The notes beneath the pieces are model-generated. The model ran no database searches and was not told the origin of the DNA. It was given only the letters and a program-made list of their open reading frames with translations. Positions 20,957 to 60,438 of a stretch of 62,858 bases of DNA are shown in pieces. The DNA comes from a virus (lineage: Duplodnaviria; Caudoviricetes): positions 1 to 62,858 of IMG/VR virus record IMGVR_UViG_3300025131_005047; one strand, given 5' to 3'. The translations under genes and the position numbers were made by a program. How positions within the stretch are numbered: position 1 is the first letter of the stretch; each line of letters begins with the position of its first letter.

Positions 20957-23900
20957 TTATACGTTCTCAAAAGATGCTCCTGTTGGAGTTATTAGGAATT
21001 CAACACTAATGAATTCAAGTGACCTTGTTGGTTTGATATAAATCTTACCTTCCAAGGTATTTTGGTCTATTAATTGTGGGTCATCAGATAGTACCACTCT
21101 AAAGTCTGTTAATCCTCTTTCTCTTCTAATAGAATCTAGAATTGGGTTTACTAAGTCTAAGAACTCATTTCTAACCTGTTCATCATTTTGTTCAAACAAT
21201 AATCTAACAGCAACTGCCGATATAAGTTTTCTAGCCTGTAGTAATAATCTTCTAACATTAATTCTATCTAACGCGGATTCTCTAATTTGTAAAGTTTTAT
21301 TACCCCAGATTACCGTACCTACATCAGAGTAGGTTGCAATTGGATTGATTCTACCTTGATAAAGGGTGTCTCTCTCATCTAGTGTAAGTTTCTTTCTTGC
21401 TTTAACAGCGTTTACAATACCCCGAGTATAACCAGCCGATGCGAACCATGGGAATGATATGTTATCCGTCAATGCTATGTTTCTCATTACCTCGTATGTT
21501 GGTGGTATGTATATTCTTACATTATTTTCTGTGTCATTATTAAGTACCCAAGGATAGTAAGTAGCCGTATAGTTAGAATCTATTCCAGTATTCTCTAAAG
21601 CTTGAACCGCGTTTAGAGGTGAAACGATACTAGCAGCATCACTCGGTGTAGCAACAAACATATTATAATCTGGTGTAGTTGCCACGTAAAGTGAATCCGC
21701 TCTATCATCCTCAATCATTTCTATAGATTCTTCTACTAAGTTACTATTATTAACATAATCAATACCTGGAGTAGCGAATATATTAATATTAACAGCTTCA
21801 GGATTAGCAAATGTGTGAATACCATCTAAATATGGATAATAATCCGTACTTGCGTCTAATGTACCGATTGGTTTGAATGAACCGTCACCAGTTGCGTTAG
21901 GGTATTCTGTAGTTGGACATGCTCCAGCTAAGTAACCACTTTGTCCTCTTCTATACGCGTCAGAATTACTTCTAGTTTTTCTATAGATATCCCAACCATC
22001 GAATCCACCATATGGTAGTACAGTGAATTTTCTTGAGTTTAATCTATAATAAGGGTCAGTAACTAAGATAGGTTCTGCTTGGAATGTAGCCTCTCCAACC
22101 ACAAATTGGTTGGTTATTCCAGATGTACCACCTACAGGACAACCACAATTAATAACTGCACATAACTCACCTTGTGTATAAGTACAGGTAGCATCTTTAT
22201 CCAGGTGGAACCCTTGTGTTAAACAAGGCCAGTCATTACCTGTAGGGTCTGCACATTTATCATTTGGTGCTTGTTTTCCTTTATAGTGGAAGAAATCTGG
22301 GTCGATTCCAATTGTGTCAGATATACCCAAATAAACCTGTCTTGGTTTATCTCCAGCACTAATAACTTCATTGCTTCCTCCTGATGATGTTCCAAACGGA
22401 GGATTATAAATTATTTCTCCTGGAGAATCATATTTTCTTTTATAAAGAACTGTTGGGTTCTTTCTACTAGCGTATTTTCTAAATAAGTAACCTTCAAAAC
22501 CACAAGGTAACGCTGTCCAAAGAGTATCGTCCATTTCAATATCTGGATTCATTTCTAACATTGCGTATCTACTCATTAATTCATATGTACCATCTGAAGT
22601 TCCAACTTTTTTACCTATGTAACTATTCAAGGTTGGGTTCAAACTACATCTAGTGTATTTCTCTAAAACTATTGGGTTAGCGTCCGTATCATTAAAGTCT
22701 CTGATAACAAAATCAAACTCAGCTCTTTCAAAACTAAGATTAATAATTGAGAATTTAACTGCTCTATTTGCTGCATCTCCATCAGGAATTGTTATAAATC
22801 TAAATAATTGGTATACTTTGAAACCTCTTAATTCAGATACAATCCATGGTGTTACTGGTGTTTGCCATTTTTCTTGATAGAATGCGATAGTATCCGTGTT
22901 AGCTGCTTCTCTAAATGAAGGTAGTGCTTGTAAAGTACATCTTAATCCTCTTACATAACCTTTTTTCCAGAAATGAGTTAACATTTTAGGATAAGCCTCC
23001 TCAACAAAAATAGGTACTTGTGTAGTGTCCCTATCAAAGTTACCAACACCATAAACTCGTTTTATATAATTTGTAGAACTTTCATTCATTGAAACATCAA
23101 ACATTCTACTTGTTCCTAATTTATCTATTACTCTCATACCAAAATCAGCAAATGGGTTGTTTAATACTTGACTCCATGTTGCCCCTGTACATACAAAAGC
23201 TACATCGGTTGCCCCGGTTACATCATAAAGTGGACCACCCGAACTTAAAGTACTTAACCCTCTCGAACGGAAAGTTGCAACTACTTGGTCATGATATTCA
23301 CAAAAAGTGTCTCCACTTAGTCGACACATTGTTATTGTAGTAATACCACTATATTGTGATTGTTGAATACTTGTTCCTGTGGTTGAAATATCTATTGCTG
23401 ATGTATAGGTCCCTGTTCCTCCACTTCTCGCTCCTAAAGTAAATAAAACAGAATAACCATCATATTTGTTTGTTACGGCATTATAATCAAAGAAATTATA
23501 TGTCCAAGTATCGTTCTTGTCGTCACATCTATCTGAACAGTGACTACTTAATCTATCAAACACTCCCCATCCATGAGTGTGAGGGTCAGTTCCGGTAATT
23601 ACACCATAAGGTATTGGTGCATTCATTTCAGGATAATTAATTGAGTTACCTGAACATACGCCAGAGTACTCTGCAAACTGGTGACAACCATATGACCATC
23701 CTAGACCTGTTCCTGATACAGCTACATCTGCTGGTGAGCCGTCTAAAGCGACTGGATGTTGTCCATTTAATTTTCCTGCTGCATATGTATAAAATGATGT
23801 TAAATCTGCTCTTAATGTAGTTGTACTTCCATTATACAATTCTATTGTGTTATCCATTCTATCACCTAAAAAAGTTGAACCCGCGATAATACTATCTATT

Positions 23901-24424
23901 ACCGAACCACCACCTGCATTTTTTACTGTGTTAGTAGAAGCAGTAAATACTGTTGTAAATAAAGCTTCGGTTGAACAATCTTCTGTAAGGCCTGTTATGC
24001 CGTCACAACATTGTGTAACAGCACTCATTGATGGGTCTTTTACATGACATAAATGTTTTAATGTTGTACAATCTAAATCTCCTAAAGTTATTACCGACCA
24101 AGAAGGTCCTGCGTCATAACCAGAATATCCTAATACTCTTGTTACAAATAGTTGATTTGATTGTTGTAAATAAGCTTTAGCGATATACCCCAATTCGTAT
24201 TTAGGTATCTGAGAGCCTACGTACTTTTCAGCACTTACACCCCCAAAATATGTGGTAAAATCACCATATGAACTTATAAAAATCGGCTCAAAAGCCGGTC
24301 CTCTTAATGCTTCTCCTGAAAGTCCTAATGTAGTAACTCCTACACTTTGTGATACGAAACTAAGGTCTTTCTCCGAAGTATACACCCCGGGGGAAACAAA
24401 AACTCTGTTAGAATTGTTAGCCAT
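20957..24424 (-). CDS. Tail sheath protein (T4 gp18-like) with large Cys/Thr-rich insertions
   Basis: FVSPGVYTSEKD, PWFASAGYTRG, RDTLYQGRINPI, IWGNKTLQ, ALDRINVRRLL, LFEQND, IYIKPTRSLEFI. Confidence 0.95.
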   Translation of the reverse strand: MANNSNRVFVSPGVYTSEKDLSFVSQSVGVTTLGLSGEALRGPAFEPIFISSYGDFTTYFGGVSAEKYVGSQIPKYELGYIAKAYLQQSNQLFVTRVLGYSGYDAGPSWSVITLGDLDCTTLKHLCHVKDPSMSAVTQCCDGITGLTEDCSTEALFTTVFTASTNTVKNAGGGSVIDSIIAGSTFLGDRMDNTIELYNGSTTTLRADLTSFYTYAAGKLNGQHPVALDGSPADVAVSGTGLGWSYGCHQFAEYSGVCSGNSINYPEMNAPIPYGVITGTDPHTHGWGVFDRLSSHCSDRCDDKNDTWTYNFFDYNAVTNKYDGYSVLFTLGARSGGTGTYTSAIDISTTGTSIQQSQYSGITTITMCRLSGDTFCEYHDQVVATFRSRGLSTLSSGGPLYDVTGATDVAFVCTGATWSQVLNNPFADFGMRVIDKLGTSRMFDVSMNESSTNYIKRVYGVGNFDRDTTQVPIFVEEAYPKMLTHFWKKGYVRGLRCTLQALPSFREAANTDTIAFYQEKWQTPVTPWIVSELRGFKVYQLFRFITIPDGDAANRAVKFSIINLSFERAEFDFVIRDFNDTDANPIVLEKYTRCSLNPTLNSYIGKKVGTSDGTYELMSRYAMLEMNPDIEMDDTLWTALPCGFEGYLFRKYASRKNPTVLYKRKYDSPGEIIYNPPFGTSSGGSNEVISAGDKPRQVYLGISDTIGIDPDFFHYKGKQAPNDKCADPTGNDWPCLTQGFHLDKDATCTYTQGELCAVINCGCPVGGTSGITNQFVVGEATFQAEPILVTDPYYRLNSRKFTVLPYGGFDGWDIYRKTRSNSDAYRRGQSGYLAGACPTTEYPNATGDGSFKPIGTLDASTDYYPYLDGIHTFANPEAVNINIFATPGIDYVNNSNLVEESIEMIEDDRADSLYVATTPDYNMFVATPSDAASIVSPLNAVQALENTGIDSNYTATYYPWVLNNDTENNVRIYIPPTYEVMRNIALTDNISFPWFASAGYTRGIVNAVKARKKLTLDERDTLYQGRINPIATYSDVGTVIWGNKTLQIRESALDRINVRRLLLQARKLISAVAVRLLFEQNDEQVRNEFLDLVNPILDSIRRERGLTDFRVVLSDDPQLIDQNTLEGKIYIKPTRSLEFISVEFLITPTGASFENV

Positions 24425-24534
24425 CTGTTATTATTTTAATTTTTGTTTATTAGTTTTATTTCTTAATAAATATGAATCTCTTATCGAAAAGAATTACATA
24501 AAACTAGGTATTTATGATTAAGTAGGAATAAAGT

Positions 24535-24720
24535 ATGACTATTTTCTACCTTACGACTATGAATGATAAGAAACCCATAAAAAACCTTAAAATTAAACCT
24601 GAAATACACAAGGTGTTAAAAGACTATTGCAATAAGAATGGTTTAAAAATGTTTAAGTTTGTAGAAAAACTAATTTTAGATAAATGTATCCCTAAAAAAG
24701 ACATTTATGGGGACTCATAA
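24535..24720 (+). CDS. Small ribbon-helix-helix-like DNA-binding protein
   Basis: KNLKIKPEIHKVLKDYCNKNGLKMFKFVEKLI fits a beta-helix-helix pattern; true start may be a later Met. Confidence 0.55.
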   Translation: MTIFYLTTMNDKKPIKNLKIKPEIHKVLKDYCNKNGLKMFKFVEKLILDKCIPKKDIYGDS

Positions 24721-25884
24721 TATGTTTCCACAAAACTCTATAGAAGCTGGGTAATATGGATTGGTTGGTGTCACCATTAAACTTAATACATCTTCATTAC
24801 TAATTTCTATTATTTTGCCGTAATCTATCCCTAAGAATATTCCGTTTTGGTATACTGTGTAGGTTCCGACATTATGTTGAGCAGAAATTTGTAAATTAAT
24901 AGTATAGTTATAAGTTTTAGTAACTGAATGAGTTGTAGTAATAGTATATCCCGTACTAGAAATTCCTGTACTTCCGTTAGTGCAAGTATCACCACTTTGT
25001 CCGTTATAGGTGCATCCGCTATAAAAATCCCAGGACTCACAAACTTTATCTGGATTTTCATCGCTGATACTATGAGGTCTATTCTTTTTAGTTTTAGTGT
25101 CAGTTTCAAAAACTAATAAAGACCTAGAGATAGCAGGAGTAACCTCAAACTCCTCCTCATCAATCAAAAATCCTTGCATCTGAAAAGTATAATTTTGCAT
25201 ATAAAATTTTCTACTTTCTAAATCTGATATTTGACTTTCATCACTTATCGTCTCAAGGATGATTGGTATATAATGACCTTTTACAAATGTATAAGCCTGT
25301 CTAGAACTAAATTTCTGTAACACAACTCTATTAAATTGATTTAATTCTCTCATTCTATTACAAACTAATCTCACATCATAAGTTATATCTATAGGAACTG
25401 GTTGTGGTATCTTATATAAATCCATTCCTTTTCTTTGGCCATCCCAAGTAGGTACTTTCGCATAGTGAAAAGTTTTTCTATTAGGTATTGTATATTGTAG
25501 GGAAGGATTAGTTCCAAATTGTACATCAGGCCTCCTAACTACGCACACAAATGGTAGAGTTATGTTCTCATCTCCGTCTACAAATTTCCATGTATTAGTA
25601 AACTCACCCCATCTCTGTGTGGTTAAAATCTGTTTAATTAGCGGAACTTCTTTTCCTTGTAATGTTATAGGAAGCTCTGCCTTTACAAAATCTAACATTC
25701 CTAAATCTAAATCCGCATGTAAAACACTTTTAGGCAAATAAGTTCCGTCCTCTGTTATAAATTCTGCTAGTTGTCTTCTTCTCTCAGGAGTGGCATACCC
25801 ATTATAACCATGTGGATAATTCTGTTGGTTTCTCACCACAGGATAGATATCTAATGTTTTTTTTACTTTTTTAGGTATTGCCAT
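24715..25884 (-). CDS. Tail terminator / sheath stabiliser (T4 gp15-like) with Thr/Cys-rich C-terminal extension
   Basis: ITLPFVCVVR...IPQPVPIDITYDV...RELNQFN...YTFQMQGFL; adjacent to neck and sheath genes. Confidence 0.65.
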   Translation of the reverse strand: MAIPKKVKKTLDIYPVVRNQQNYPHGYNGYATPERRRQLAEFITEDGTYLPKSVLHADLDLGMLDFVKAELPITLQGKEVPLIKQILTTQRWGEFTNTWKFVDGDENITLPFVCVVRRPDVQFGTNPSLQYTIPNRKTFHYAKVPTWDGQRKGMDLYKIPQPVPIDITYDVRLVCNRMRELNQFNRVVLQKFSSRQAYTFVKGHYIPIILETISDESQISDLESRKFYMQNYTFQMQGFLIDEEEFEVTPAISRSLLVFETDTKTKKNRPHSISDENPDKVCESWDFYSGCTYNGQSGDTCTNGSTGISSTGYTITTTHSVTKTYNYTINLQISAQHNVGTYTVYQNGIFLGIDYGKIIEISNEDVLSLMVTPTNPYYPASIEFCGNIL

Positions 25885-25886
25885 TT

Positions 25887-26402: not shown

Positions 26403-26466
26403 GTCCTCTTTTTATTTATAAATATCATATAAAGCCTTATATTTATGGTGTAAAAATTTATAAACT

Positions 26467-28203: not shown

Positions 28204-28246
28204 GATATTTATCGTTATAGAAAAATAACTATTTATAAATAAAGAT

Positions 28247-29371
28247 ATGTCAACAATAATAACAACTACCGAAAGAACCAAGCTATATACCCAATTAAAA
28301 CATCAATTAGGAGCACCTATTATTGGTGTTGAGTTAGAAGACGAAATGTTGGATTCCTTATTAGAACTTTCAGTTTTAGATTACGGGATGTACGTACAAG
28401 ATTGGCTTATAGAAAATCAATGGTCATCACTTTATGATATTAGTATAGACGAAGCTGATTTAACTAGAGCGTTTATGACCAGAAGTTTAGATTGGGAAAC
28501 ATCGTTTACTTATGCATACTCAAAAATAGTAGGGTTACAAACTGCGGGGCCTTGGGAACTTAAAAAAGACTTTGTTTCTTTAAGTGCTAATACACAAATA
28601 TATCAAATTCCAGCAAATAGAGAAATTAATGAAATAATGTGGTATACTAGACCAGAATTAAATGAAATGTTAGTTGACCCATTTTTAGGTGGGTTTGGTG
28701 GTCTAGGTGGTATTGGTATGGGCGGTGGCCTTGGTGGTTGGGCTCAAATGGGAATTGTTGGTTCCTACTATATGATGCCAGCTAATGATTTATTATTAAG
28801 AATGGCAGATAGAAATATAAAAAATAGACTTATTGGTTCAGAATTAACATATAGAGTTACAGCTGGACCTAATGGTACTAAATTTCTTCATTTATATAAT
28901 GTTCCTGGTGGAACATTTGATTTCGGAAGTCAAGAAATACATGATTCTAGATGTTGGTACTGGTATTACGATACTAGTAAAGATGGTAGAGACGCTTGTT
29001 TAGAAGCAAATTCTGACGTTGTTTTACTACCATCCGATGTTCCCATAGAGGCGATTAAATATGTAGACCTTAATCCCCCAGCTAGAGCATGGATTAGGAG
29101 ATACTTTACTGCTTTAGCAAAAGAAACTTTAGGTAGGGTAAGAGGTAAATATAGTGGAGCTTTAAAAGTACCAGATAGTGAATTAACTATGGACTATTCT
29201 AGTTTACAAACTGAAGGTATAGATGAAAAAGCTAAACTTATAGAAGAATTAACTGGTAGACTGGAGAGACTTAGACAAGATACTATGATGGAAAGAAAAG
29301 CTAATGAAGCTGAGAATCTAAATAAGTCATTACAATATCGTCCTTTTCAGGACCCTTATAACGTAATTTAA
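28247..29371 (+). CDS. Neck protein / head-tail adaptor (T4 gp13-like)
   Basis: LGAPIIGVEL, WIRRYFTALAKETLGRVRGKY, EGIDEKAKLIEEL. Confidence 0.85.
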   Translation: MSTIITTTERTKLYTQLKHQLGAPIIGVELEDEMLDSLLELSVLDYGMYVQDWLIENQWSSLYDISIDEADLTRAFMTRSLDWETSFTYAYSKIVGLQTAGPWELKKDFVSLSANTQIYQIPANREINEIMWYTRPELNEMLVDPFLGGFGGLGGIGMGGGLGGWAQMGIVGSYYMMPANDLLLRMADRNIKNRLIGSELTYRVTAGPNGTKFLHLYNVPGGTFDFGSQEIHDSRCWYWYYDTSKDGRDACLEANSDVVLLPSDVPIEAIKYVDLNPPARAWIRRYFTALAKETLGRVRGKYSGALKVPDSELTMDYSSLQTEGIDEKAKLIEELTGRLERLRQDTMMERKANEAENLNKSLQYRPFQDPYNVI

Positions 29372-29372
29372 T

Positions 29373-30278
29373 ATGGGATATCCTTATGGTGGTACAGGTT
29401 TTTATACAAGAGCCGATTTAACTAGACAAATCTATCAACGATGCCAAACCGTTGCTACATTTTCAGGCTCTTCCAACTGGGGTGACAATTTACGAGTTAA
29501 CTATTTAAGTGCTGACACATATAACTTTACTGTTTCCGCTACTACAGGAACTACTGTAGTGGTAGGACTTAATCTCCAACCTAGACTTAATGGGTCATCA
29601 TTACAAATTAGCCCTTATACACTACATTCTGGTAGTGGTACCGATTTAGAAATAGACCTAACCAATGGGGATGTTTTTAGAAGTTCCTCTTCAAGAAGAT
29701 ATAAAGAAAATATACGAAATATGGAGTTAAGCCAACTCAAAAATTTTCTTAAACTTTCAGCAAAGAGATTTACATGGAAAGGTAACCAAAGAGAAGATGT
29801 AGGATTAATAGCTGAGGAACTTCATTATTTAGGGTTACAAGATTGGGTTATATATAATGGACCACCGGCCATAGAAACTGTAGAAAGTATTAAATATAAA
29901 CAACTTAGTGTAGGGTTATTAGAATTAGTTAAAGACCTATATAAGATTGTTGGCAGGGAACCTTTAGAACATATTAAAGAACCTTATGAAACTGTTAAAG
30001 ATAATTCAGAAAGTGTTAAAGTAATATCTCATAATTATACAACTAACGATATTAAATATATTATAACTAAAGAAAATGAAGTTACGATAACCTTGGACCC
30101 GTCACATACTAATAGATTCTATATTAAAGCGATGACACCGACAATCATTAAACCTCATTATGGCCTTATTGATGAAGAATGGGAAGAAATAGCTATGGGA
30201 ACACAAAGTAGTGTAGAATTACTGTGGGAAGGAACTTCTTGGTATATTTTATCTTCAGACGGTCTCAAGAACTCCTAA
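29373..30278 (+). CDS. Fibre-like protein with peptidase S74 intramolecular chaperone domain and an extra C-terminal domain
   Basis: SSSRRYKENI...F-x-W-K...VGLIAEEL...IKYKQL...LLELVKDL. Confidence 0.75.
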   Translation: MGYPYGGTGFYTRADLTRQIYQRCQTVATFSGSSNWGDNLRVNYLSADTYNFTVSATTGTTVVVGLNLQPRLNGSSLQISPYTLHSGSGTDLEIDLTNGDVFRSSSSRRYKENIRNMELSQLKNFLKLSAKRFTWKGNQREDVGLIAEELHYLGLQDWVIYNGPPAIETVESIKYKQLSVGLLELVKDLYKIVGREPLEHIKEPYETVKDNSESVKVISHNYTTNDIKYIITKENEVTITLDPSHTNRFYIKAMTPTIIKPHYGLIDEEWEEIAMGTQSSVELLWEGTSWYILSSDGLKNS

Positions 30279-32975
30279 GTCAGTTAAGAAATTTTGTGGG
30301 TCTTCTCCAACCCTATTCCAAAATACCATTTCTTCGTCACTTAAAGTAAGTATTTCTTCTAAAGTATCTTGGTCCCCTTCTCTTCTAGGTTGTCCATTTA
30401 TTAATTTACATTGTTTTTTAGTAAAAAATTGTATATCCTCTGGTTTCTTTACTAATAAACTATCTCTTACATCTGGTGAAAATACCACTAATAATGGTTC
30501 TATACGTTTATTGAAAACATTTACATATCTCGCGATATTATATTCCCCTTTTAATTCAGGATTATTTTGTATGTCTTCTTCTTTTACTCTATAGCACCTT
30601 AATAGGGTTTTAGACGTTCCGTCTTTTAATCTTTTATTCTGTACATCACCATGAGAAACTGCTGTTCCATTATTAACATAGTAAATAGTATCACCTAAAC
30701 TAACACTTAAATTTTCTTTTAATATTAATTCCATATGTGCCATTTTCGACATAGGGTGACCTGCTTTATTTTTCTTTTTAGAACGCACAATATACTCATC
30801 AACAGTTAATTTAACCCTAGATTTATTAGCTATTTTATAGAGTGGTATATCTCTATTATATATTTTATCTATATATTCATAATAATAGTCTACAAATTCT
30901 TTTCCTTGTCCTTTTAATAAAAGTGTTAACCCTTTATCTAGAAAATCTGCTATATATTCTGAAAGTGTTTTAGACTTAATAGTATTTCCTGTTAATTTAA
31001 TCTTTCCTTTATCAGTTAATAAAGCATAATTCTTTCTAGCCACATTAATACAAGCAGGCCATTGTCCATCGGTATCTAATCCCATTTCTCCTCTCATAAA
31101 TAAATCATTATATTCTGCTACATCTGCTTCAGAACCAAAATACCTTTTATCCTTTATTACTAATTCATTATTACCTAATCCTATATACTCTCTAGCCTCT
31201 ACATCTGTAGGACAAGAAAAATTTACCCCATCCGTATCCATTACTAAGGGGTCGTAACCTTTTTTAATAAAAAACTTAACCATTTGTCTTAAATACTGTC
31301 TAGCGGTACAGGTAACTTTTTCACCCATATCCATATCTCCCCACGGAAAAACGTGTGGTGCTGATAAAGAACCAAACATGGAATTAATAAAAATTTTAAT
31401 AGGTAATTGTTTTCTACCAAAAGAAGCTGATTTTTTCTTGTCTGTAATTGAGTATTTGGACGCTAAGTTTTTATATTTAATTCTCGTGTCCCTAAAATAC
31501 TTTAACATTCCTTTCATAGCGTGAGTTATATCACATTTTGGAAATACATCGTGAACTAATTGTATAGAAGGATAAAGTGAACTAAAATCCAACTTAAGAA
31601 CATTTTCAGAATATCCTGTTTTTACCAATTTAGATAATCCACCAACAAAAGGTCTTTTTTCTTCTTTTATAGGTATTGCTAACCCTTTATGATAAGACCA
31701 TGCACACATTAACATCTTCCATAATGTAGCGGTACCAATAGTTGACACTCTTTCGTATGTAGTAGGTACCATTGTAGACAATAAAAATGAAGCTTGATTA
31801 AATTGTTCATCTACTACCATTGTCTCGTCTAAGTCATCCCCCAAGTATCTATTTATAATTTCTTTACCTGTTATTTTTTTATATGTGTTTGGGTACCTAC
31901 TTAATAAATCTTTTAATCCGTCCTCACTACATAGTTTGTATTTACCTGTTCTAGGATTAAAATAATATTCTAAATCCTCTTCATATGTCTTATAAATTTT
32001 ATCTCCGGGCACATATACACGATTATTTTTATTTGCTCCTACAAATTCTGTTATGTACTTTAACCCCCAAGATTTAATATCTGAATTAATTGTTTGGGCT
32101 CTTCTAACTGCATGGGCAACATCTACGACATTATACCCCCACATTTGAGTGGAGGCATATTCTTCAATCTCTGCACCTAATTTTAATAGTGAGTCCCTCC
32201 TTCTTAATTTTACATTAGGGTTCAAAGTTTTAGACACATCTCTAATATTTAATCCCAATATTTCTGCTCTACGAATAATCCACTCCCAATCAAAAAATGA
32301 GGAGTTGTACCCCCCAATAATGGTGGGCCTTAGCTTATCGATATAATCAAAGAAATCTACAATCATTCTTCTTTCACTATCCTCATCATTAGCAAATAAT
32401 ACTTTCTTATTTCCTCTATTATCTGACATACCAATTAGAAAAATTGTTCCATCGTCTGGTCTAAGAGAAGTTGTCTCAATATCAAAAACAAATCTATGAA
32501 TCTCATCATATTCTAAAAATCCTTTGAAGAGCCTCTTACCTCTTTGTGTTAAATATTGTTCTACAGGTGTTAGAATTATAATAGAATCTCTACTATCTTT
32601 ATCCCAAGGATTTAAACCTCCTTGTGTAAAAAAAGATACAAGATTTTTATATGCTTTAGTAGTTTTTACTAAATATCTTAATCCGTTTTCTAATCTTTCA
32701 TTATCTCCTGTCTCCAAAGACTCAATAATAATTCCGTGTTGGGACATAGCTTCTTTTTGTAAAGATTTACTATTCTTATAAAAGTTTTTCTTTCGTAAAT
32801 CTCCCACCCAACAAAAAGGAATAAATTTATCTTTTTGTATGTATTTGCCTTTAACCGGGTCTTCTTTTATTTTATAAATGGAATTTGTTCTATAGTCGTA
32901 TTCTACAGCTACTATATATTTTTCAGGGTCTGTGCCTTCTAGGAAGTTTTGTATTTCTTTGGGTGTGAGTTTCAT
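30255..32975 (-). CDS. Family B DNA polymerase
   Basis: Exonuclease FDIETT and YNSSFFD; polymerase LDFSSLYPS, KIFINSMFG, MDTDG, KNYA. No intein evident. Confidence 0.95.
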   Translation of the reverse strand: MKLTPKEIQNFLEGTDPEKYIVAVEYDYRTNSIYKIKEDPVKGKYIQKDKFIPFCWVGDLRKKNFYKNSKSLQKEAMSQHGIIIESLETGDNERLENGLRYLVKTTKAYKNLVSFFTQGGLNPWDKDSRDSIIILTPVEQYLTQRGKRLFKGFLEYDEIHRFVFDIETTSLRPDDGTIFLIGMSDNRGNKKVLFANDEDSERRMIVDFFDYIDKLRPTIIGGYNSSFFDWEWIIRRAEILGLNIRDVSKTLNPNVKLRRRDSLLKLGAEIEEYASTQMWGYNVVDVAHAVRRAQTINSDIKSWGLKYITEFVGANKNNRVYVPGDKIYKTYEEDLEYYFNPRTGKYKLCSEDGLKDLLSRYPNTYKKITGKEIINRYLGDDLDETMVVDEQFNQASFLLSTMVPTTYERVSTIGTATLWKMLMCAWSYHKGLAIPIKEEKRPFVGGLSKLVKTGYSENVLKLDFSSLYPSIQLVHDVFPKCDITHAMKGMLKYFRDTRIKYKNLASKYSITDKKKSASFGRKQLPIKIFINSMFGSLSAPHVFPWGDMDMGEKVTCTARQYLRQMVKFFIKKGYDPLVMDTDGVNFSCPTDVEAREYIGLGNNELVIKDKRYFGSEADVAEYNDLFMRGEMGLDTDGQWPACINVARKNYALLTDKGKIKLTGNTIKSKTLSEYIADFLDKGLTLLLKGQGKEFVDYYYEYIDKIYNRDIPLYKIANKSRVKLTVDEYIVRSKKKNKAGHPMSKMAHMELILKENLSVSLGDTIYYVNNGTAVSHGDVQNKRLKDGTSKTLLRCYRVKEEDIQNNPELKGEYNIARYVNVFNKRIEPLLVVFSPDVRDSLLVKKPEDIQFFTKKQCKLINGQPRREGDQDTLEEILTLSDEEMVFWNRVGEDPQNFLTDLGVLETV

Positions 32976-33004
32976 CTTTTACTTTTAACGTTTGTACTAT
33001 TAGC

Positions 33005-33023
33005 TTCATGTTATTTACATGAA
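33005..33023 (-). promoter_or_regulatory. Hairpin in the DNA polymerase 5' leader
   Basis: TTCATGT-AAATA-ACATGAA on the minus strand, between the promoter and the ATG (29 nt upstream of it). Confidence 0.4.
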
Positions 33024-33042
33024 TTTTACTTAACACTACTAA

Positions 33043-33071
33043 AATATAAAAATAAAAAGTGTGATTGTCAA
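33043..33071 (-). promoter_or_regulatory. Sigma70-like promoter of the DNA polymerase gene
   Basis: TTGACA (33071-33066), 17-nt spacer, TATATT (33048-33043). Confidence 0.65.
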
Positions 33072-33458
33072 TTAACAATCACAAGAACTATTGACGAAAC
33101 TATCTGTTATATTAATATATAAATCTTCTCTAACAGGAACAATTAAATCACTACAATCATCTATTAATGATATATTAAATTGCCCTTGATATCTACCCAC
33201 TTCACTAACATCGCTAGGTTGCCATCTGTAATAGATATAATATTCTATTGGGGAAAGAGCGTCAACATTTGTTTTTGAAACTATGCCTGCAGCTTTATTT
33301 AAAATAACAAACACACCATTTTTTGTGTCCTTCATAGAAAAAGAAATAGCTGAGTTTACCAGCTTTTGATAAAAACTATCAAAATCACTTCTACCGTCCT
33401 GTATAAGTTGCATTTTCAGGATTGGTTCAGTTGAATTTTTTCTTATAAAGAACTCCAT
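33072..33458 (-). CDS. BppU N-terminal-like baseplate/fibre attachment protein
   Basis: FFIRKNSTEPIL...IYYRWQPSDVSEVGRYQGQF...LIVP...LYINI. Confidence 0.6.
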   Translation of the reverse strand: MEFFIRKNSTEPILKMQLIQDGRSDFDSFYQKLVNSAISFSMKDTKNGVFVILNKAAGIVSKTNVDALSPIEYYIYYRWQPSDVSEVGRYQGQFNISLIDDCSDLIVPVREDLYINITDSFVNSSCDC

Positions 33459-33462
33459 AATT

Positions 33463-34932
33463 TTAACTTGGGTTAATTATGAAAAATTGTATTTTTCCTT
33501 CGGCAGCTAAATCTACATCTCCGTCACCTGAATTGTCTATTCTCACATCGAAATACCCAATATAAGCACCCGTTAACGAAGCCGTTAAATTTGCGTCGGA
33601 TGGGGAATCATTTTGTATTACTGTTAAGAACACTAATGTGTCCGAACCTTTAACTTTATTATTCCTAACTCTAAAAATAGCTGATGATTGTGATGTAAGA
33701 ACAGAACCTCCTGCATCATATAACCTAATTGTTCCACTACTTGAGTTTAGGCTTACTTGTTCTGCAGTACTTGCTGATTGTGTTACTGTTCTTCCTGCAC
33801 CACCCGCGTGAATAAAGTCACCAGCCCAAGTGTCGCCACTTAGACCATCACCACCAAAAGACAAGTCTCTGTCAGTAGATATGTTACCTGAATCAATTGT
33901 TGTCCAAACTCCATCTTCATCACCCAAAGTTAGTGCTCCGTCGGCGATATAGGTGTTACCACTAATTACCGCTGAGCCATTTACATCAATTGAATTTAGA
34001 ATTGATAGTGTTCCTGTACACGCTGAGATATTATTAACACTTAAAGTATTGTATGTTGTAGATGTTACTGTTACAGCTGAAGTTGTTGCTGTATATCCTG
34101 TTATTACTGTTCCACCACTTATACATGTACTAGTCGATGCGGTAGATATAAAAGTACATCCACTGAGATAGGTTGTTGTGACTACTGTATCCGCCCCTCT
34201 ACATAAATTAAGGTCACCTATTATAGTTGTATTTCCTGTTATCACCGTAGGTGTGGCAATATGTAAGGTACCACTACATCCCGATATTTCGGAAACTGTA
34301 AGAGTTGTTGTAACTGCTGTAGTTCCTGTATTAGCTGAGGTAGCCCCTGTCCAATTCTCGTCGGTTTTAACACAACACAGATTTAAATTACCACATATAT
34401 CTACATTATTACTAATAGATAATGTTCCTGTACAAGCTGAAATTTTACTAACGTATAGTGTTGGTACTGTTGTAGCTGTAGTTCCTGTCATCCCTGAGGT
34501 AATAACTGGTGGACAACCACACATGTTTAAATCACCACACATTGTAGTGGTACCACTTAATGTCATTCCTCCGCTAACTGTAATTCCTCCGTTAAATGTA
34601 ACAGGACAACTAAAAGTACTAGTTGCATTTACTAATAATGTGTTAACACATGTCGTCCCTAAAACAGTATTAGCAACTACTGTATGGTCTGTTCCTACCC
34701 ACACATTCCCACTAACATCTACACTTTGTTGGAAGTTATACCCTGTAGCTACGGTTAAGTTTTCTTCTAAATACGGTACTCTTAATAAGCTACCTGCTGC
34801 ATTTATAACACTTAAATGTTCATTAGTGAACGGTGCTGCAGTGTCCGCACCCGCAAATAATGAAATATACCCTGAAGGTGGGGTTGTGATTGTTGATTTA
34901 TTCTCTAAGTTAATTCTAAGTTTTGCCGACAT
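33463..34932 (-). CDS. Thr/Ser/Gly-rich tail fibre or appendage protein with internal repeats
   Basis: Three repeats of TL-x-V-x-x-IS[AG]C[TS]GTL and three of G[DN]LN[LM]C; C-terminal VTQSAS...VSLNSSSGTI beta domain. Confidence 0.65.
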   Translation of the reverse strand: MSAKLRINLENKSTITTPPSGYISLFAGADTAAPFTNEHLSVINAAGSLLRVPYLEENLTVATGYNFQQSVDVSGNVWVGTDHTVVANTVLGTTCVNTLLVNATSTFSCPVTFNGGITVSGGMTLSGTTTMCGDLNMCGCPPVITSGMTGTTATTVPTLYVSKISACTGTLSISNNVDICGNLNLCCVKTDENWTGATSANTGTTAVTTTLTVSEISGCSGTLHIATPTVITGNTTIIGDLNLCRGADTVVTTTYLSGCTFISTASTSTCISGGTVITGYTATTSAVTVTSTTYNTLSVNNISACTGTLSILNSIDVNGSAVISGNTYIADGALTLGDEDGVWTTIDSGNISTDRDLSFGGDGLSGDTWAGDFIHAGGAGRTVTQSASTAEQVSLNSSSGTIRLYDAGGSVLTSQSSAIFRVRNNKVKGSDTLVFLTVIQNDSPSDANLTASLTGAYIGYFDVRIDNSGDGDVDLAAEGKIQFFIINPS

Positions 34933-34979
34933 GTTTTTATTCTTTATTAGTTATTTTATTCATTTTATTATACTCTATA

Positions 34980-35297
34980 TTACGTAATGGAGACGACTAC
35001 CGCCTCACCATCCAAGTTTATCTGCCCATTTATAATCCATTCATCCGCATGTATAACTTGCATGTTCGTCTTAATGCAATAAATATCATTCCAATCAACA
35101 GGAGATGGGTGTGCACCCATGGTTAACATATCCTCTAGTCGTTTGAGTCCCCCTTGTACCTGACAGCTATTGTTAATGTTAATGTGAGTTGCAAAACTCG
35201 TTTCCCCACTAAAATTAACCCAACTAAAAAACGTGGTAGGTAATGGCACGTCACCACCCTTCCAATTTTCTATTATATTTTTACATTTACAACCCAT
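34980..35297 (-). CDS. Hypothetical protein, probably virion-associated
   Basis: Co-oriented in the fibre operon; contains SGET. Confidence 0.55.
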   Translation of the reverse strand: MGCKCKNIIENWKGGDVPLPTTFFSWVNFSGETSFATHININNSCQVQGGLKRLEDMLTMGAHPSPVDWNDIYCIKTNMQVIHADEWIINGQINLDGEAVVVSIT

Positions 35298-35303
35298 TAT
35301 CTT

Positions 35304-37874
35304 TTATTTATAATAATTTCCATATATGACCATTTTTGAATCTATTTCATCATTTATCTTACTAATAACTATTTTGATGACATCATTTGGCCCCGCACAA
35401 AACGGGAAAGTAACAGTTTTTTCTGCTCCATGACCCATTTCACCATATATATACATCGAATAGCTTGCAATATTGTCAATAAGTGCGTTTGTAAATTTAA
35501 CTCCTGACCAACCTCCTGCAGATAAATAATGGTCCAATCTATCAACAGCTAATGTAAGTACCTGATTCTCAGTATACCCTGAGGTTGGGACATTATTAAT
35601 CTTACAAAAGTCTTCTACGAGCCCTGTTTCTCTACACATAATGTCAAACTCTAAAGAAATGTCTAAAGAATCCCCTTCAGTTAAATATAATACCTGACCT
35701 GGTCTACACGCATTAAAATTACAACTACAATCTAGTAAATTATATCTATCTTTATCTACTAAATAATTGTGTATTATTTCATCATTAGTTAATGGTTCTA
35801 AATAATATCTCATTTGAGATATTCCTCCATCAAAAGTGCCTGCAAAATTCTTTTCTATTAATAACCCTAAATCTTTATTATCTTGGTGGTATGGGTAACA
35901 AGTATCTCCAGATATAAAAGTTAAGCTTTCTATGAGTCCTTGTGACCCTCCACCCCACGACATATTATATGGTACTCCCACCTGTAATTCTGGCTCCGTA
36001 TTTAATCTTCTAGGGATAATCTCTTCAAAGTCAGGAACCTCCAAAACTGGTCGTCCATTAACAAATAATGTTAAAGTTCCTCTTCTAAAATTAATTTCGT
36101 CTAACCATTTTTTATTAAAATTTATTACTGTTTTTTCTTTTATGTGTGCTGTTATAGCTGCAGTACTAGGTGTAACGATTTCTCTTAAATCATTGACACC
36201 ACCATAATTTTCTAAATCACAACCCTCATAACAATAGTCTCTTTGGAATCTTGCTGTGATTTCTAACCATGGTTCTTTAGCTATATGGGTACTTCCAGTT
36301 AATCCACAAATTGATTTAGAAGTGTATTTTTCACTAATTGTATATCCTGTAGTGTAGGTGTATCCTGTAATACACGTACCTGTCATTATACAACTTCCAG
36401 TGTAGTATATTGCTCTATAACCTAACTTATAATCTGGAGTTAATCGCAGGCCAAAAGCGTTACTCATTGAATCTATTATATTAGGATATGTCCATTTTTC
36501 ATAGAGTGTTTTCTTATTATTACATCCGTCTACTACTATTACTTTTTTACTTTTTTGTATCGGTAGGGTCCCACCAGAACAGGAATACTCCATATTATCA
36601 CATGTTGTTACACCCGATTCCCCAGAAAATACATTCCAAAACTTATTCTCTGCTCTAGTTCCCATATACCAGAAAAATCCAGCATTATTAGGGTATTTGG
36701 CGTTTAAAGTATTTTCATAACCAGGACATATTTCTGGATGCTGTCTTACTTTAAGTAAACAATCAACAGTCCATCCACACTCAGTTCTTGCTGGAAGAGC
36801 TTCATATTCATAATCATATAATTTAAAGAATCCTTGATAGAATCCGCCATCAAGTTCTTGGTATTGTCCTGCACATGACCCTGTCACACTCACTATATTA
36901 TAATTGTATGGGTTTTTAGTGTATCCTGTTACCGCATGCATTTTGAATCTTTTATCATAATGAAGCGGATTGTGTTTATATTGTGATGGCAAAGTTTCCC
37001 ATAATTTAAGTGATTCTATTCCACAAGGTGTCTTCCAATACCCTAGTTGTACCGAAGTAGAAGCTGTAAAAATAGCACCGAAAGGAGTTGAAGCTGAACT
37101 AGTTATCGAAGCGTTACTTAATGTAAATTTATACGCAGTCCCTCCAGTAAAGAAACAACAGGTAACATATTTCATATCCTCACAATTAAATCCACTAAGA
37201 TTATTATTAGTAGTTTTTGCTGTATATGAAACAGTTGGTACTCCATTAACTAAAGTGTTTGGGTATTCACATCCTGTATCACAGTTTGGTGGGTTGGTAA
37301 TATTAGGTGACCAGGTTACTGGCCAGAAATTAACCGTATTCTCGAGTGTTATTCCTGTAACAGTACCTACAAAGGTGGTGTTTGCGGTAAATGAAACTTT
37401 ACAAAAATCACAGATTGTAGGGTCGTCTTTCATATACCTCACCAATCCGTTATCGGTTCCTGTTAGCCCTATACCACACACAGCTTCTACAAATTTTGTA
37501 TAACCACTATAATCTCTAGTTTCACATTTTATACATCTACACAACGCATCATGTTCATTAGGTCTTGCCTTATCCCAATAAGATAAACTTAATAAAGTAT
37601 TTGCAGAATAATATTTATTACACGCAAGATTAAAAGATTGTGTACATCCTGTTCTATTCAAATCAAACCATGCTCCTAATCTATTAGAGGAAAAGGCTGT
37701 ACCTGTTTTTAGAGAACTTTCATTCCCCAGGACTCCTATAGGGGATTTTGAGTATATTACCTCCATATTATAGTCCTTTTCATCAGACGCTAAAAAGAAA
37801 TCATAGTATGAGCTATAATTAATATGTGCATCTAATTTATTAAAAAAATAGTTATTTAAATTTTGTGGTCCCAT
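35304..37874 (-). CDS. Large Cys/Thr-rich virion protein with concanavalin A/LamG-like core
   Basis: GWTVD...GFFWYMGTRAENKF...LTLFVNGR...FAGTFDGGISQMRYYLEPLTNDEIIHNY is LamG-like; TATTTATG just upstream. Confidence 0.6.
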   Translation of the reverse strand: MGPQNLNNYFFNKLDAHINYSSYYDFFLASDEKDYNMEVIYSKSPIGVLGNESSLKTGTAFSSNRLGAWFDLNRTGCTQSFNLACNKYYSANTLLSLSYWDKARPNEHDALCRCIKCETRDYSGYTKFVEAVCGIGLTGTDNGLVRYMKDDPTICDFCKVSFTANTTFVGTVTGITLENTVNFWPVTWSPNITNPPNCDTGCEYPNTLVNGVPTVSYTAKTTNNNLSGFNCEDMKYVTCCFFTGGTAYKFTLSNASITSSASTPFGAIFTASTSVQLGYWKTPCGIESLKLWETLPSQYKHNPLHYDKRFKMHAVTGYTKNPYNYNIVSVTGSCAGQYQELDGGFYQGFFKLYDYEYEALPARTECGWTVDCLLKVRQHPEICPGYENTLNAKYPNNAGFFWYMGTRAENKFWNVFSGESGVTTCDNMEYSCSGGTLPIQKSKKVIVVDGCNNKKTLYEKWTYPNIIDSMSNAFGLRLTPDYKLGYRAIYYTGSCIMTGTCITGYTYTTGYTISEKYTSKSICGLTGSTHIAKEPWLEITARFQRDYCYEGCDLENYGGVNDLREIVTPSTAAITAHIKEKTVINFNKKWLDEINFRRGTLTLFVNGRPVLEVPDFEEIIPRRLNTEPELQVGVPYNMSWGGGSQGLIESLTFISGDTCYPYHQDNKDLGLLIEKNFAGTFDGGISQMRYYLEPLTNDEIIHNYLVDKDRYNLLDCSCNFNACRPGQVLYLTEGDSLDISLEFDIMCRETGLVEDFCKINNVPTSGYTENQVLTLAVDRLDHYLSAGGWSGVKFTNALIDNIASYSMYIYGEMGHGAEKTVTFPFCAGPNDVIKIVISKINDEIDSKMVIYGNYYK

Positions 37875-46216: not shown

Positions 46217-46217
46217 T

Positions 46218-52088: not shown

Positions 52089-52120
52089 AGTATGATTATA
52101 ATGAAAAAAAGTAAGAATTC

Positions 52121-53529: not shown

Positions 53530-53531
53530 AA

Positions 53532-54119: not shown

Positions 54120-54120
54120 T

Positions 54121-54666: not shown

Positions 54667-54668
54667 TT

Positions 54669-55808: not shown

Positions 55809-55811
55809 TAA

Positions 55812-56813: not shown

Positions 56814-56814
56814 A

Positions 56815-60430: not shown

Positions 60431-60438
60431 ATATAAAA

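What the first reader, a model, noticed from the sequence alone, without database searches (positions are those of the whole stretch)
20957..37874. [ST]-[GA]-x-T motif saturating structural proteins: candidate sequon for phage-encoded virion glycosylation
Seen (hand counts): about 20 copies in the 489 aa fibre (SGTT, SGMT, TGTT, SACT, TGAT, SANT, TGNT, SGCT, SGGT, TGYT, SGNT, SGDT...), more than 15 in the 856 aa LamG-like protein, about 8 in sheath insertions, 3 in the gp15-like extension (SGCT, SGDT, TGYT), 3 in the S74 protein (SADT, SATT, TGTT), plus SANT in gp13-like, SGET in 34980, SGET/TGLT in the tube initiator and SGYT in the hub. I saw about 1 in the 906 aa polymerase and none in the helicase. 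The motif spans unrelated folds and concentrates in insertions. Inference: a modification signal read by enzymes of the neighbouring glycan locus, distinct from the Bacteroidota D-(S/T)-(A/L/V/I/M/T) O-glycosylation sequon, giving a glycan-coated virion.
Basis: partly seen in the sequence, partly recalled or inferred. Interest (0 to 1): 0.88.

Follow-up and report, generated by a model that had tools for sequence, protein, structure and literature searches.

The report
Sequon-like Ser/Thr-Gly/Ala-x-Thr motif on phage tail
The outer tail and fibre proteins of this uncultured aquatic giant phage and its relatives carry the four-residue word Ser/Thr-Gly/Ala-x-Thr about five to ten times more often than chance, which behaves like an address tag for a chemical modification, most plausibly sugar attachment by the phage's own enzymes, although no chemistry has been done.

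Summary
[ST][GA]xT occurs 20 times in the 489-aa fibre (4.1 expected), 17 in the 856-aa lectin-like protein (1.6) and 9 in the sheath (2.7). These excesses survive local shuffles. Single copies in other proteins are chance. Tube, hub, the giant proteins and a relative's capsid are not enriched.

The motif is sharply defined:
- Position 1 is S or T, position 2 is G or A, and position 4 is T, then C.
- Position x can be anything except P, R, W and K.
- Reversed and re-spaced versions are near background.

All 120 examined homologues of the 856-aa protein are enriched. The three defining positions are kept better than the same residues elsewhere, while x varies freely. Two cultured control phages show no excess.

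Sites sit in mixed secondary structure, in proteins that mostly do not match one another by BLAST. This fits a selected short linear motif, most plausibly an O-glycosylation sequon.

The link to the glycan locus rests only on co-occurrence. The locus has at least nine glycosyltransferase-like genes and a GDP-mannose dehydratase/fucosyltransferase set. No initiating enzyme is identified. A structural role is the main rival.

The scan flagged the same motif on related DNA (e1-5812583, e1-5813865).

The parts
33463..34932 (-). 489-aa tail-fibre-like protein with the densest motif carrier: 20 [ST][GA]xT. These include tandem tracts (TSGMTGTTATT, TGATSANTGTTAVT) and three 'IS[AG]C[ST]GTL' repeats.
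   Evidence: Eleven relatives at 63-89% identity keep the tracts, and indels add or remove them. No Pfam or PHROG family, so the 'fibre' label rests on composition and position only. The AF2 model failed (pLDDT 39).
35304..37874 (-). 856-aa Cys-rich (33 Cys) protein with a concanavalin/LamG-like jelly-roll. It has 17 [ST][GA]xT, or 20 if Cys is allowed at position 4.
   Evidence: 1482 metagenomic homologues. 120 of 120 examined are enriched. AF2 pLDDT 74. Foldseek gives weak lectin-like hits, best E 6e-4. No Pfam or PHROG family.
20957..24424 (-). 1155-aa tail sheath with large insertions. It has 9 motifs, all at residues 134-771, outside the conserved sheath core.
   Evidence: phrog_23 E 9e-54 on residues 865-1153. 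Pfam Phage_sheath_1 and 1C below cut-off. Counts. The G005 homologue has 8 vs 2.35. The cultured Mel-JY01 sheath has 1 vs 1.39.
24715..25884 (-). It has 3 motifs within residues 289-314 of its C-terminal part.
   Evidence: Weak in the window alone (71-86 of 2000 local shuffles). 22 relatives pooled give 27 vs 6.2, but the G005 homologue has 0.
29373..30278 (+). 301-aa protein with a Peptidase_S74 intramolecular-chaperone domain. It has 3 motifs at residues 46-61.
   Evidence: Pfam PF13884 E 1e-8. Counts. 51 relatives pooled give 47 vs 11.4. The G005 homologue has 5 vs 0.61.
40526..41758 (+). 410-aa glycosyltransferase (GT-B/GT4-like). It is a core gene of the lineage, transcribed divergently from the 856-aa gene about 2.6 kb away.
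   Evidence: phrog_7162 E 7e-36. No Pfam or NCBIfam hit. Atlas clusters are named GT1/RfaG, a lead only. Present in 41 of 50 relatives' contigs and 3 of 3 that are at least 90% complete, at 51-91% identity. It carries 0 motifs in 66 relatives against 13.4 expected.
43744..57717 (+). Glycan locus:
- NAD-dependent epimerase/dehydratase (43744-44724)
- two-domain GT2 (44702-46216)
- GT25 (46985-47617)
- sulfotransferase (47617-48300)
- GT11 (48294-49064) and GT10 (49049-49798) fucosyltransferase-like genes
- GT2 (51255-52088)
- two DegT aminotransferases (52121-53314, 54669-55808)
- methyltransferase (53532-54119)
- GDP-mannose 4,6-dehydratase (55812-56813)
- epimerase/reductase (56815-57717)
   Evidence: Pfam hits; NCBIfam. 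The role of the last two genes in making GDP-fucose is inferred from the families, not tested.
59354..61239 (+). Two further glycosyltransferase-like genes (weak Glycos_transf_1, weak Glycos_transf_2). They are conserved at 57-61% identity in G005.
   Evidence: Pfam E 1e-3 and 3e-4, both below cut-off. G005 homologues.

Best explanation
[ST]-[GA]-x-[T>C] (x not P, R, W or K) is a short linear motif kept by selection on the outward-facing tail proteins of this phage lineage: fibres, the lectin-like protein, the sheath insertion domains and the S74 fibre. It most likely marks acceptor sites for a post-translational modification made in the host cytoplasm before or during tail assembly. The most plausible candidate is O-glycosylation of the Thr/Ser (possibly S-glycosylation where Cys replaces Thr) by one of the phage's own soluble glycosyltransferases. 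The other transferases of the locus would then extend the sugar using the nucleotide sugars the locus makes (GDP-fucose, amino sugars).

Shown: the motif, its sharp definition, its selective conservation, its restriction to a subset of tail proteins, its lineage specificity, and the presence of the enzymes.

Inferred: that the motif is modified at all, that the modification is a glycan, and which enzyme and which residue are involved.
For: 1. Strong excess over global and local composition.

2. Directional and spacing-specific, in the 120 homologues:
- Observed/expected 7.9 for the motif.
- 1.36 for the reversed word.
- 1.4-2.2 for shifted spacings.

3. Sharp residue rules:
- Position 1: S 8.8x, T 7.3x, all others 2.5x or less.
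- Position 2: G 7.9x, A 7.95x.
- Position 4: T 7.9x, C 5.0x, S 2.1x, but V 0.65x and I 0.53x. This is not a beta-propensity effect.
- Position x: P 0.41x, R 1.6x, W 1.9x, K 3.4x, all others 4.9-16x.
- Equal use of G and A argues against a positive-phi turn requirement (inference).

4. G-x-T without the preceding S/T is not enriched: 4 vs 6.2, 3 vs 5.2, 7 vs 7.1.

5. Flanks carry little information.

6. Selection acts on the word itself. In pairs at 40-90% identity:
- Position 1 stays S/T in 0.78, against a background of 0.59.
- Position 2 stays G/A in 0.75, against 0.66.
- Position 4 stays T in 0.69, against 0.49.
- Position x is identical in only 0.38, against 0.58.

7. Site turnover. In 12 full-length homologues the motif starts in 56 alignment columns. 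Six columns are held in at least 9 of 12 sequences, with S/T, G/A and x varying. Twenty-three are private to one sequence.

8. Mixed secondary structure in the AF2 model: strand interiors, loop-to-strand edges and loops.

9. Carrier proteins mostly do not match one another by BLAST. In G005, 15 of 260 ORFs carry the excess, while the other 245 sit at 91 vs 83.0.

10. T/S/G-rich neighbours can lack it entirely: G005 1977-aa protein, 1 vs 6.66.

11. Controls without the signal:
- Microcystis phage Mel-JY01 tail region, 18 vs 13.4.
- E. coli phage phAPEC8 whole genome, 45 vs 42.2.

12. Codon use inside the motif equals that outside, so the signal is at protein level.

13. Enzymes are present and conserved.
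Against: - No chemical evidence of any modification.
- No initiating protein glycosyltransferase can be named.
- The SgtA-type GT-A+TPR architecture suggested by earlier scan notes is absent: TPR_11 in 0 of 5 genomes, and no GT2 of that size.
- The core GT-B enzyme has distant homologues in phAPEC8-like phages that show no motif excess.
- Co-occurrence of motif and transferases has no negative control inside the lineage.
- Non-virion proteins are not generally depleted of the motif: G005 rest 91 vs 83; polymerase 32 vs 27.6.
- Some copies are clearly part of structural repeats: 'GGSGNTI' in G005 262154-265489, and 'IS[AG]C[ST]GTL' three times in the fibre.
- Solvent exposure could not be computed. 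The tools return no coordinates, and the fibre model failed.
- The locus could equally serve DNA hypermodification or host-surface remodelling. These alternatives are named in passages of PMC12619734.
Confidence: 0.45

Rival explanations
1. Structural signature. The word is a favoured building block of the Thr-, Gly- and Cys-rich beta-structures (beta-helix rungs, hairpins, strand caps) that make up the outer tail domains of this lineage. It is kept because it folds or packs well, not because it is modified.
For: - Some copies sit in obvious repeats: 'GGSGNTI' in a G005 fibre, and 'IS[AG]C[ST]GTL' three times in the window's fibre.
- Weak hydrophobic preference at -1 and +1: V 2.1x, L 1.5x, I 1.7x. 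This is compatible with a two-residue hairpin.
- Several sites lie at loop-to-strand edges.
- The carriers are all beta-rich and mostly Cys-rich.
Against: - Sites occur in strand interiors, edges and loops alike.
- Ala equals Gly at position 2, and V/I are disfavoured at position 4.
- Carrier proteins mostly do not match one another by BLAST.
- Tandem, indel-prone tracts look like linkers.
- Compositionally similar large proteins of the same phage lack the word.
- Tail proteins of two control phages lack it.
Confidence: 0.3
2. A different chemistry at the same sites. Possibilities are another post-translational modification (phosphorylation, acylation, methylation, sulfation directly on Ser/Thr) or an intramolecular cross-link using the hydroxyl/thiol at position 4. 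Such a change would stabilise tail proteins outside the cell.
For: - Position 4 accepts T, C and weakly S, that is, nucleophiles.
- Cys is enriched in and around the word: x = C 15.6x, position -3 3.2x.
- The locus also holds a sulfotransferase and a methyltransferase.
Against: - No kinase or cross-linking enzyme was seen among the ORFs scanned.
- Several strong carriers have almost no Cys: G005 626-aa protein with 1 Cys, 1808-aa protein with 9 Cys.
- Sulfo- and methyltransferases inside sugar loci usually act on sugars (established knowledge, not tested).
Confidence: 0.1
3. Binding motif. The repeated hydroxyl-bearing word forms part of the surface by which the outer tail proteins bind host polysaccharide, or each other, with no covalent modification.
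For: - Restricted to peripheral, host-facing tail proteins.
- One carrier has a lectin-like jelly-roll.
Against: - The word is rarest in the best-conserved lectin-like core: only 1 of 17 copies lies in residues 530-720.
- It occurs in many unrelated contexts.
- No known carbohydrate-binding family uses such a dispersed four-residue word (recalled, not tested).
Confidence: 0.1
4. Statistical or compositional artefact of a motif defined after the fact.
For: Three of the listed proteins have only 1-3 copies.
Against: - Local shuffles.
- Reversed and re-spaced controls.
- Unbiased word scans rank SGxT and TGxT at the top in the window and in G005.
- 120 of 120 homologues are enriched.
Confidence: 0.02

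Closest known systems
Virion O-glycosylation of mycobacteriophages by phage-encoded glycosyltransferases (Freeman et al. 2023). I saw it only as cited and summarised in a passage of PMC12619734; the paper itself is not held.
   Same: A tailed phage carries its own glycosyltransferases, and structural proteins would be modified in the cytoplasm, giving a glycan-shielded particle.
   Different: - There the glycans sit on the C-termini of the capsid and tail-tube subunits. Here the tube has 0 motifs and the capsid of a relative is not enriched.
- Here the candidates are fibres, a lectin-like protein and sheath insertions.
- A defined four-residue word is involved.
- The locus is far larger, with a GDP-mannose dehydratase/fucosyltransferase set plus amino-sugar, sulfo- and methyltransferase genes.
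- No chemistry exists for this lineage.
SgtA / BclA3 of Clostridioides difficile (PMC7157674; passages read)
   Same: A soluble transferase adds beta-O-GlcNAc to Thr (Ser also accepted) two residues after a Gly, in a surface fibre protein encoded nearby.
   Different: - SgtA is GT-A plus TPR. No TPR_11 was found in the window or four relatives, and the window's GT2 proteins have no TPR.
- The substrate there is a collagen-like GPT repeat. Here plain G-x-T is not enriched unless S/T precedes it, Ala replaces Gly freely, and Pro at x is avoided.
Serine-rich-repeat adhesin glycosylation (GtfA/GtfB and followers) of streptococci and staphylococci (recalled; only a weak hit of the two-domain GT2 to GalT1, PDB 5hea, E 0.006)
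   Same: Cytoplasmic, multi-enzyme O-glycosylation of a fibrillar adhesin, started by a GT-B (GT4) enzyme and extended by GT-A enzymes. Words such as SAST occur in both.
   Different: - No long Ser-dipeptide repeat region.
- No GtfB partner or accessory Sec system was looked for or seen.
- The motif here is dispersed through folded domains.
General O-glycosylation of Bacteroidota, sequon D-(S/T)-(A/I/L/V/M/T)
   Same: A short three- to four-residue O-glycosylation word in a possibly related host phylum. Bacteroidota is predicted as host for the similar 'moraphage' lineage in PMC12619734.
   Different: That word is at expectation in the three main carriers. That system works outside the cytoplasm (recalled).
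Autonomous glycosylation of giant algal viruses (chloroviruses) with non-canonical sequons. PMC4691112 and PMC7019647 were seen in a search listing only; details are recalled.
   Same: A virus-encoded glycosylation machinery acts on structural proteins at its own, non-host sequon.
   Different: Those are eukaryotic viruses with N-linked glycans on the capsid protein. Here it is a tailed phage, with candidate O-linkage, on tail proteins.

Membership tests
Mycobacteriophage-type virion glycosylation | Phage-encoded glycosyltransferases present | tested here: met
   At least nine glycosyltransferase-like ORFs in the window.
Mycobacteriophage-type virion glycosylation | Target sites on C-termini of the major capsid and tail-tube subunits | tested here: not met
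   The tube (15108-15596) has 0 motifs. The G005 capsid protein has 3 vs 1.21. The motif sits in fibres, the lectin-like protein and sheath insertions.
Mycobacteriophage-type virion glycosylation | Glycan demonstrated on virion proteins | not testable with these tools
   Uncultured phage; no proteomic data examined.
SgtA/BclA3-type collagen-like Thr O-GlcNAcylation | GT-A catalytic domain fused to TPR repeats | tested here: not met
   PF13414 TPR_11: 0 of 5 genomes (window plus 4 relatives; 0 of 3 that are at least 90% complete). GT2 open frames are 218-278, 407, 451-516 and 826 aa, with no TPR hit in the window's own. Other TPR models were not tried.
SgtA/BclA3-type collagen-like Thr O-GlcNAcylation | Substrate is a collagen-like G-x-T (GPT) triplet repeat | tested here: not met
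   [^ST]G[^P]T gives 4 vs 6.2, 3 vs 5.2 and 7 vs 7.1. Pro at x is 0.41x. No collagen family in Pfam.
Bacteroidota general O-glycosylation | Enrichment of D-[ST]-[ALIVMT] in the target proteins | tested here: not met
   3 vs 3.42, 2 vs 2.43 and 8 vs 5.09.
N-glycosylation (N-x-S/T) | Enrichment of N-{P}-[ST] | tested here: not met
   11 vs 9.1, 8 vs 9.8 and 12 vs 10.5.
Serine-rich-repeat adhesin glycosylation (GtfA/B) | GT-B (GT4) initiating enzyme with GtfB partner; long Ser-dipeptide repeat substrate | tested here: inconclusive
   A GT-B-like core enzyme exists but has no Pfam or NCBIfam assignment. No GtfB search was done. The substrates lack long Ser-dipeptide repeats.
Structural repeat (beta-helix/solenoid rung) | Motif at a fixed position of a periodic repeat unit | tested here: inconclusive
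   True for some copies: three 'IS[AG]C[ST]GTL' units in the fibre, and 'GGSGNTI' in a G005 fibre. Not true for the 856-aa protein, where sites are aperiodic and in mixed secondary structure.
'Moraphage' lineage of large aquatic phages (PMC12619734) | 200-307 kb aquatic contigs, T4-distant core genes, sigma factor, dUTPase, four core glycosyltransferase groups | tested here: inconclusive
   Relatives reach 292-298 kb at 93-99% estimated completeness. The window has dUTPase, a sigma-70 region 2 protein and several transferases. No sequence comparison with the published genomes was possible; their identifiers may be in supplements, which I could not see.

The most novel reading that the evidence does not exclude
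A whole lineage of aquatic giant T4-like phages runs its own cytoplasmic protein O- (and perhaps S-) glycosylation system. It would use a defined four-residue sequon, [ST]-[GA]-{P,R,K,W}-[T/C], written dozens of times into the outward-facing tail proteins. The tail and fibres would therefore leave the cell coated with phage-made fucose- and amino-sugar-containing, possibly sulfated or methylated, glycans. This would be the first sequon-directed glycoprotein system of a tailed phage.
Probability: 0.35. Interest if true: 0.85.

Novelty: new variant of a known kind. Interest (0 to 1): 0.6.

Why it matters
Virion glycosylation by phage-encoded enzymes is so far documented for mycobacteriophages. 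There it blunts antibody recognition (as summarised in PMC12619734).

If the word found here is a true sequon, it would show three things:
- Abundant aquatic giant phages also sugar-coat their host-recognition apparatus.
- Glycosylated phage proteins can be predicted from sequence.
- A new soluble protein glycosyltransferase with a compact four-residue recognition word exists. Such an enzyme would be useful for glyco-engineering.

It would also change how the many 'auxiliary' sugar genes of marine and freshwater phages are read.

If the word is structural instead, it is still a strong, lineage-wide sequence rule for a large family of unannotated tail proteins, with more than 1400 homologues.

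Tried and rejected
- **Fibre model.** AF2 of the fibre with its 11-sequence alignment gave mean pLDDT 39. Only the C-terminal ~90 residues were usable, so there is no structural reading of the densest carrier.
- **Surface mapping.** Not possible. The fold tool returns secondary structure but no coordinates.
- **856-aa protein in cultured phages.** tblastn against the cultured-phage collection found no match.
- **Family annotation of motif-rich G005 proteins.** Pfam and PHROGs on ten proteins gave 1 tail-fibre PHROG and 1 sub-threshold SprB repeat.
- **PDB sequence searches with two transferases.** The GT-B enzyme gave nothing useful. The two-domain GT2 gave only weak hits to chondroitin polymerase and GalT1.
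- **'Avoidance' of the motif in cytoplasmic proteins.** This looked promising in pooled relatives: GT-B enzyme 0 vs 13.4, two-domain GT2 4 vs 13.2, adaptor-like protein 2 vs 13.5. It is not general: polymerase 32 vs 27.6, helicase 17 vs 13.8, and the G005 non-enriched proteome 91 vs 83. The pooled sequences are also not independent. I do not use it as evidence.
- **Co-occurrence test.** The GT-B enzyme is present in 41 of 50 contigs, and the 9 misses are all fragments of 5-32% estimated completeness. This gives no discrimination.
- **SgtA lead from earlier scan notes.** Not met here.
- **DNA-level explanation.** Rejected, because codon use inside the motif equals that outside.
- **Literature.** Searches found no paper describing this word or glycosylated virions in this lineage. 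The Freeman 2023 paper is not held.

Full report
**What the window is**

The 62.9-kb record is a fragment of an uncultured T4-like myovirus with about 31-35% G+C. CheckV estimates it at 20% complete. It encodes:
- a sheath (phrog_23, E 9e-54), a tube, a baseplate-hub-like protein and an S74 fibre-chaperone protein;
- a family-B polymerase, a helicase, dUTPase and PhoH;
- a sigma-70-like protein.

From 40.5 to 61.2 kb it carries a large sugar locus:
- a GT-B transferase and a two-domain GT2;
- GT25, GT11 and GT10 (fucosyltransferase families) and two further GT2-like genes, plus one weak GT1-like gene;
- a sulfotransferase and a methyltransferase;
- two DegT aminotransferases;
- GDP-mannose 4,6-dehydratase and two further epimerase/dehydratase genes.

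Relatives in IMG/VR reach 292-298 kb at 93-99% estimated completeness. One of them, G005, is syntenic with the window and has the same locus. The lineage resembles the 'moraphages' of PMC12619734: 200-307 kb, aquatic, Flavobacteriia predicted as hosts, four core glycosyltransferase groups (abstract and passages read). I could not compare sequences with those genomes.

Yes for the main carriers. Counts of [ST][GA]xT against 1000 whole-protein shuffles:

| Protein | Observed | Expected |
|---|---|---|
| 489-aa fibre | 20 | 4.08 |
| 856-aa protein | 17 | 1.59 |
| Sheath | 9 | 2.70 |
| 389-aa protein | 3 | 0.50 |
| S74 protein | 3 | 0.48 |
| Polymerase | 1 | 0.57 |
| Helicase | 0 | – |

Shuffling within blocks of 10, 20 or 40 residues keeps local Thr/Gly richness. 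The excess remains:
- Fibre: 0 of 2000 shuffles reach the observed count.
- 856-aa protein: 0 of 2000.
- Sheath: 6-11 of 2000.
- 389-aa protein: 71-86 of 2000.
- S74 protein: 23-58 of 2000.

The last two are therefore weak in the window alone. Their families are enriched across relatives: 27 vs 6.2 in 22 sequences and 47 vs 11.4 in 51 sequences. The G005 homologue of the 389-aa protein, however, has none.

The labels 'gp15-like', 'gp13-like', 'tube initiator' and 'hub' were not confirmed by Pfam or PHROGs. The exceptions are a weak adaptor hit for 28247-29371 and a hub hit for 14129-14896.

**How sharply is the word defined?**

The 856-aa protein has 1482 metagenomic homologues. In all 120 that were listed the word is enriched (z > 3). 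Pooled, they hold 1654 copies against 208 expected.

An unbiased scan of all a-b-x-c words in these sequences puts TGxT, SGxT and SAxT first, second and third. The same scan on whole proteomes ranks SGxT 1st and TGxT 3rd of 3850 words in the window. In G005 it ranks SGxT 2nd, SAxT 4th and TGxT 7th of 7230, behind a poly-Thr word.

Position by position:
- Position 1: S 8.8x, T 7.3x.
- Position 2: G 7.9x, A 7.95x.
- Position 4: T 7.9x, C 5.0x, S 2.1x, V 0.65x, I 0.53x.
- Position x: anything except P (0.41x), R (1.6x), W (1.9x) and K (3.4x).

Controls:
- The reversed word is at 1.36x.
- Words with other spacings are at 1.4-2.2x.

Other checks:
- Flanking positions carry little information.
- G-x-T without a preceding Ser/Thr is not enriched.
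- The Bacteroidota word D-[ST]-[ALIVMT] and N-x-S/T are not enriched.
- Codon use inside the word matches that outside.

**Evolutionary behaviour**

In 12 full-length homologues the word starts in 56 alignment columns:
- Six columns are occupied in 9-12 of the 12 sequences. There S/T, G/A and x interchange while the word is kept.
- Twenty-three columns are private to one sequence. Alignment error may inflate this number.

In pairs at 40-90% identity among 24 homologues:

| Position | Kept in motif | Same residue class elsewhere |
|---|---|---|
| 1 (S/T) | 0.78 | 0.59 |
| 2 (G/A) | 0.75 | 0.66 |
| 4 (T) | 0.69 | 0.49 |
| x (identical) | 0.38 | 0.58 |

The pairs are not independent. Even so, the word lies in variable regions and is itself protected.

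In the fibre family, indels add or delete whole tandem tracts of the word.

**Where the word is and is not**

In G005 (260 ORFs of at least 80 aa), 15 ORFs carry the excess at Poisson p < 1e-3. The other 245 are at expectation, 91 vs 83.0.

The 15 are large proteins that sit in a few groups along the genome. They mostly do not match one another by BLAST and are almost blank in Pfam and PHROGs. One is a tail-fibre PHROG.

Not enriched:
- tube, hub, the two giant proteins (one with a C-terminal amidase), polymerase, and the capsid and head module;
- a 1977-aa T/S/G-rich protein, which has 1 copy against 6.66 expected.

In the sheath all 9 copies lie in residues 134-771, outside the conserved core. 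That such sheath insertions face outward is recalled knowledge of T4-type sheaths, not tested here.

Control phages show no excess:
- Microcystis phage Mel-JY01, tail and head region: 18 vs 13.4. Its sheath has 1 vs 1.39.
- E. coli phage phAPEC8, which has distant homologues of the GT-B enzyme and a rhamnose pathway: 45 vs 42.2 over 154 ORFs.
- The 484-kb metagenomic phage LR756508 has a weakly enriched sheath, 5 vs 1.0.

**Structure**

The AF2 model of the 856-aa protein has mean pLDDT 74. It has a beta-rich N-terminal part and a jelly-roll whose best Foldseek matches are lectin-like modules. These matches are weak, with best E 6e-4.

The 20 copies of [ST][GA]x[TC] fall in strand interiors, loop-to-strand edges and loops, including the eight copies in blocks with pLDDT above 80. 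So they do not form one structural element.

Exposure could not be computed. The fibre model failed.

**Interpretation**

The word has the properties of a selected short linear motif:
- It is compact, directional and context-free.
- Its variable position is tolerant but avoids Pro.
- It turns over in position.
- It is limited to peripheral tail proteins of one lineage.

Both defining ends carry nucleophilic side chains (S/T, and T/C/S). The phage invests about a third of this window in sugar-nucleotide and transferase genes, of which several are conserved in G005 and one, the GT-B transferase, across the lineage. I therefore put O-glycosylation by a phage-encoded soluble transferase first, at about 0.45.

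The steps from 'selected motif' to 'modified', 'glycan' and 'this locus' are inferences.

The main rival is a structural role, at about 0.3. Part of the signal in some fibres clearly comes from repeats. Other chemistry, or a binding role, share most of the rest.

**Relation to earlier scan notes**

The scan has flagged the same word on DNA of two related phages (e1-5812583, e1-5813865). It has flagged Gly-x-Thr words with an SgtA-like GT2-TPR enzyme in other phages.

My tests agree with the first two. They do not carry the SgtA reading over to this lineage:
- no TPR_11 in 5 genomes;
- no excess of plain G-x-T.

**Verdict**

- It would be a new variant of phage virion glycosylation, a phenomenon already known in mycobacteriophages.

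Noticed in passing
window 1-6228 (-), 6541-11562 (-): Two giant proteins (more than 2076 aa, open at the window edge; and 1673 aa). The first ends in an amidase/endolysin-like domain (phrog_822, E 1e-10). Both are conserved at about 42% identity in G005 and lack the motif. They are probably internal tail or tape-measure-like proteins.
   Followed up: partly
window 35304-37874 (-) and homologues: The motif carriers are unusually Cys-rich for cytoplasm-assembled proteins: 33 Cys in 856 aa, mostly 17-49 (13 in one short one) in the 60 homologues printed, and 215 Cys in a 4512-aa G005 protein. This suggests disulfide or metal stabilisation after release.
   Followed up: no
L100:2155-3687 (-) (G005 170155-171687) and other G005 proteins: There is a recurring Cys-containing unit of the form 'GCTD..A.NYNP'. 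GCxD, DGxC, GCT and CTD are among the most over-represented words of the G005 proteome. This is an unannotated small repeat domain in tail proteins.
   Followed up: no
G005 181607-187540 (-): A 1977-aa T/S/G-rich protein lies next to motif-rich giants but has only 1 motif against 6.66 expected. It is a possible example of avoidance, or of a different fold class.
   Followed up: no
relatives' homologues of window 40526-41758: In 12 of the 41 matching contigs the match to the GT-B enzyme contains one in-frame stop (9 TGA, 3 TAA). The open frames are nevertheless 311-435 aa. The alignment probably runs a few residues past the natural stop, but recoding was not excluded.
   Followed up: no
window 61246-61944 (+), 57723-58472 (+), 39399-39809 (+): A sigma-70 region-2 protein (sub-threshold), PhoH and a weak WYL-domain protein flank the sugar locus. 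The sigma factor and dUTPase match the core gene list given for 'moraphages' in PMC12619734.
   Followed up: partly
window 44702-46216 (+): A two-domain GT-A protein (Glyco_tranf_2_5 plus Glycos_transf_2) has a weak sequence hit to chondroitin polymerase K4CP (PDB 2z86/2z87, E 1.5e-5). It sits beside a sulfotransferase, so a polymerising, possibly sulfated glycan is conceivable.
   Followed up: no
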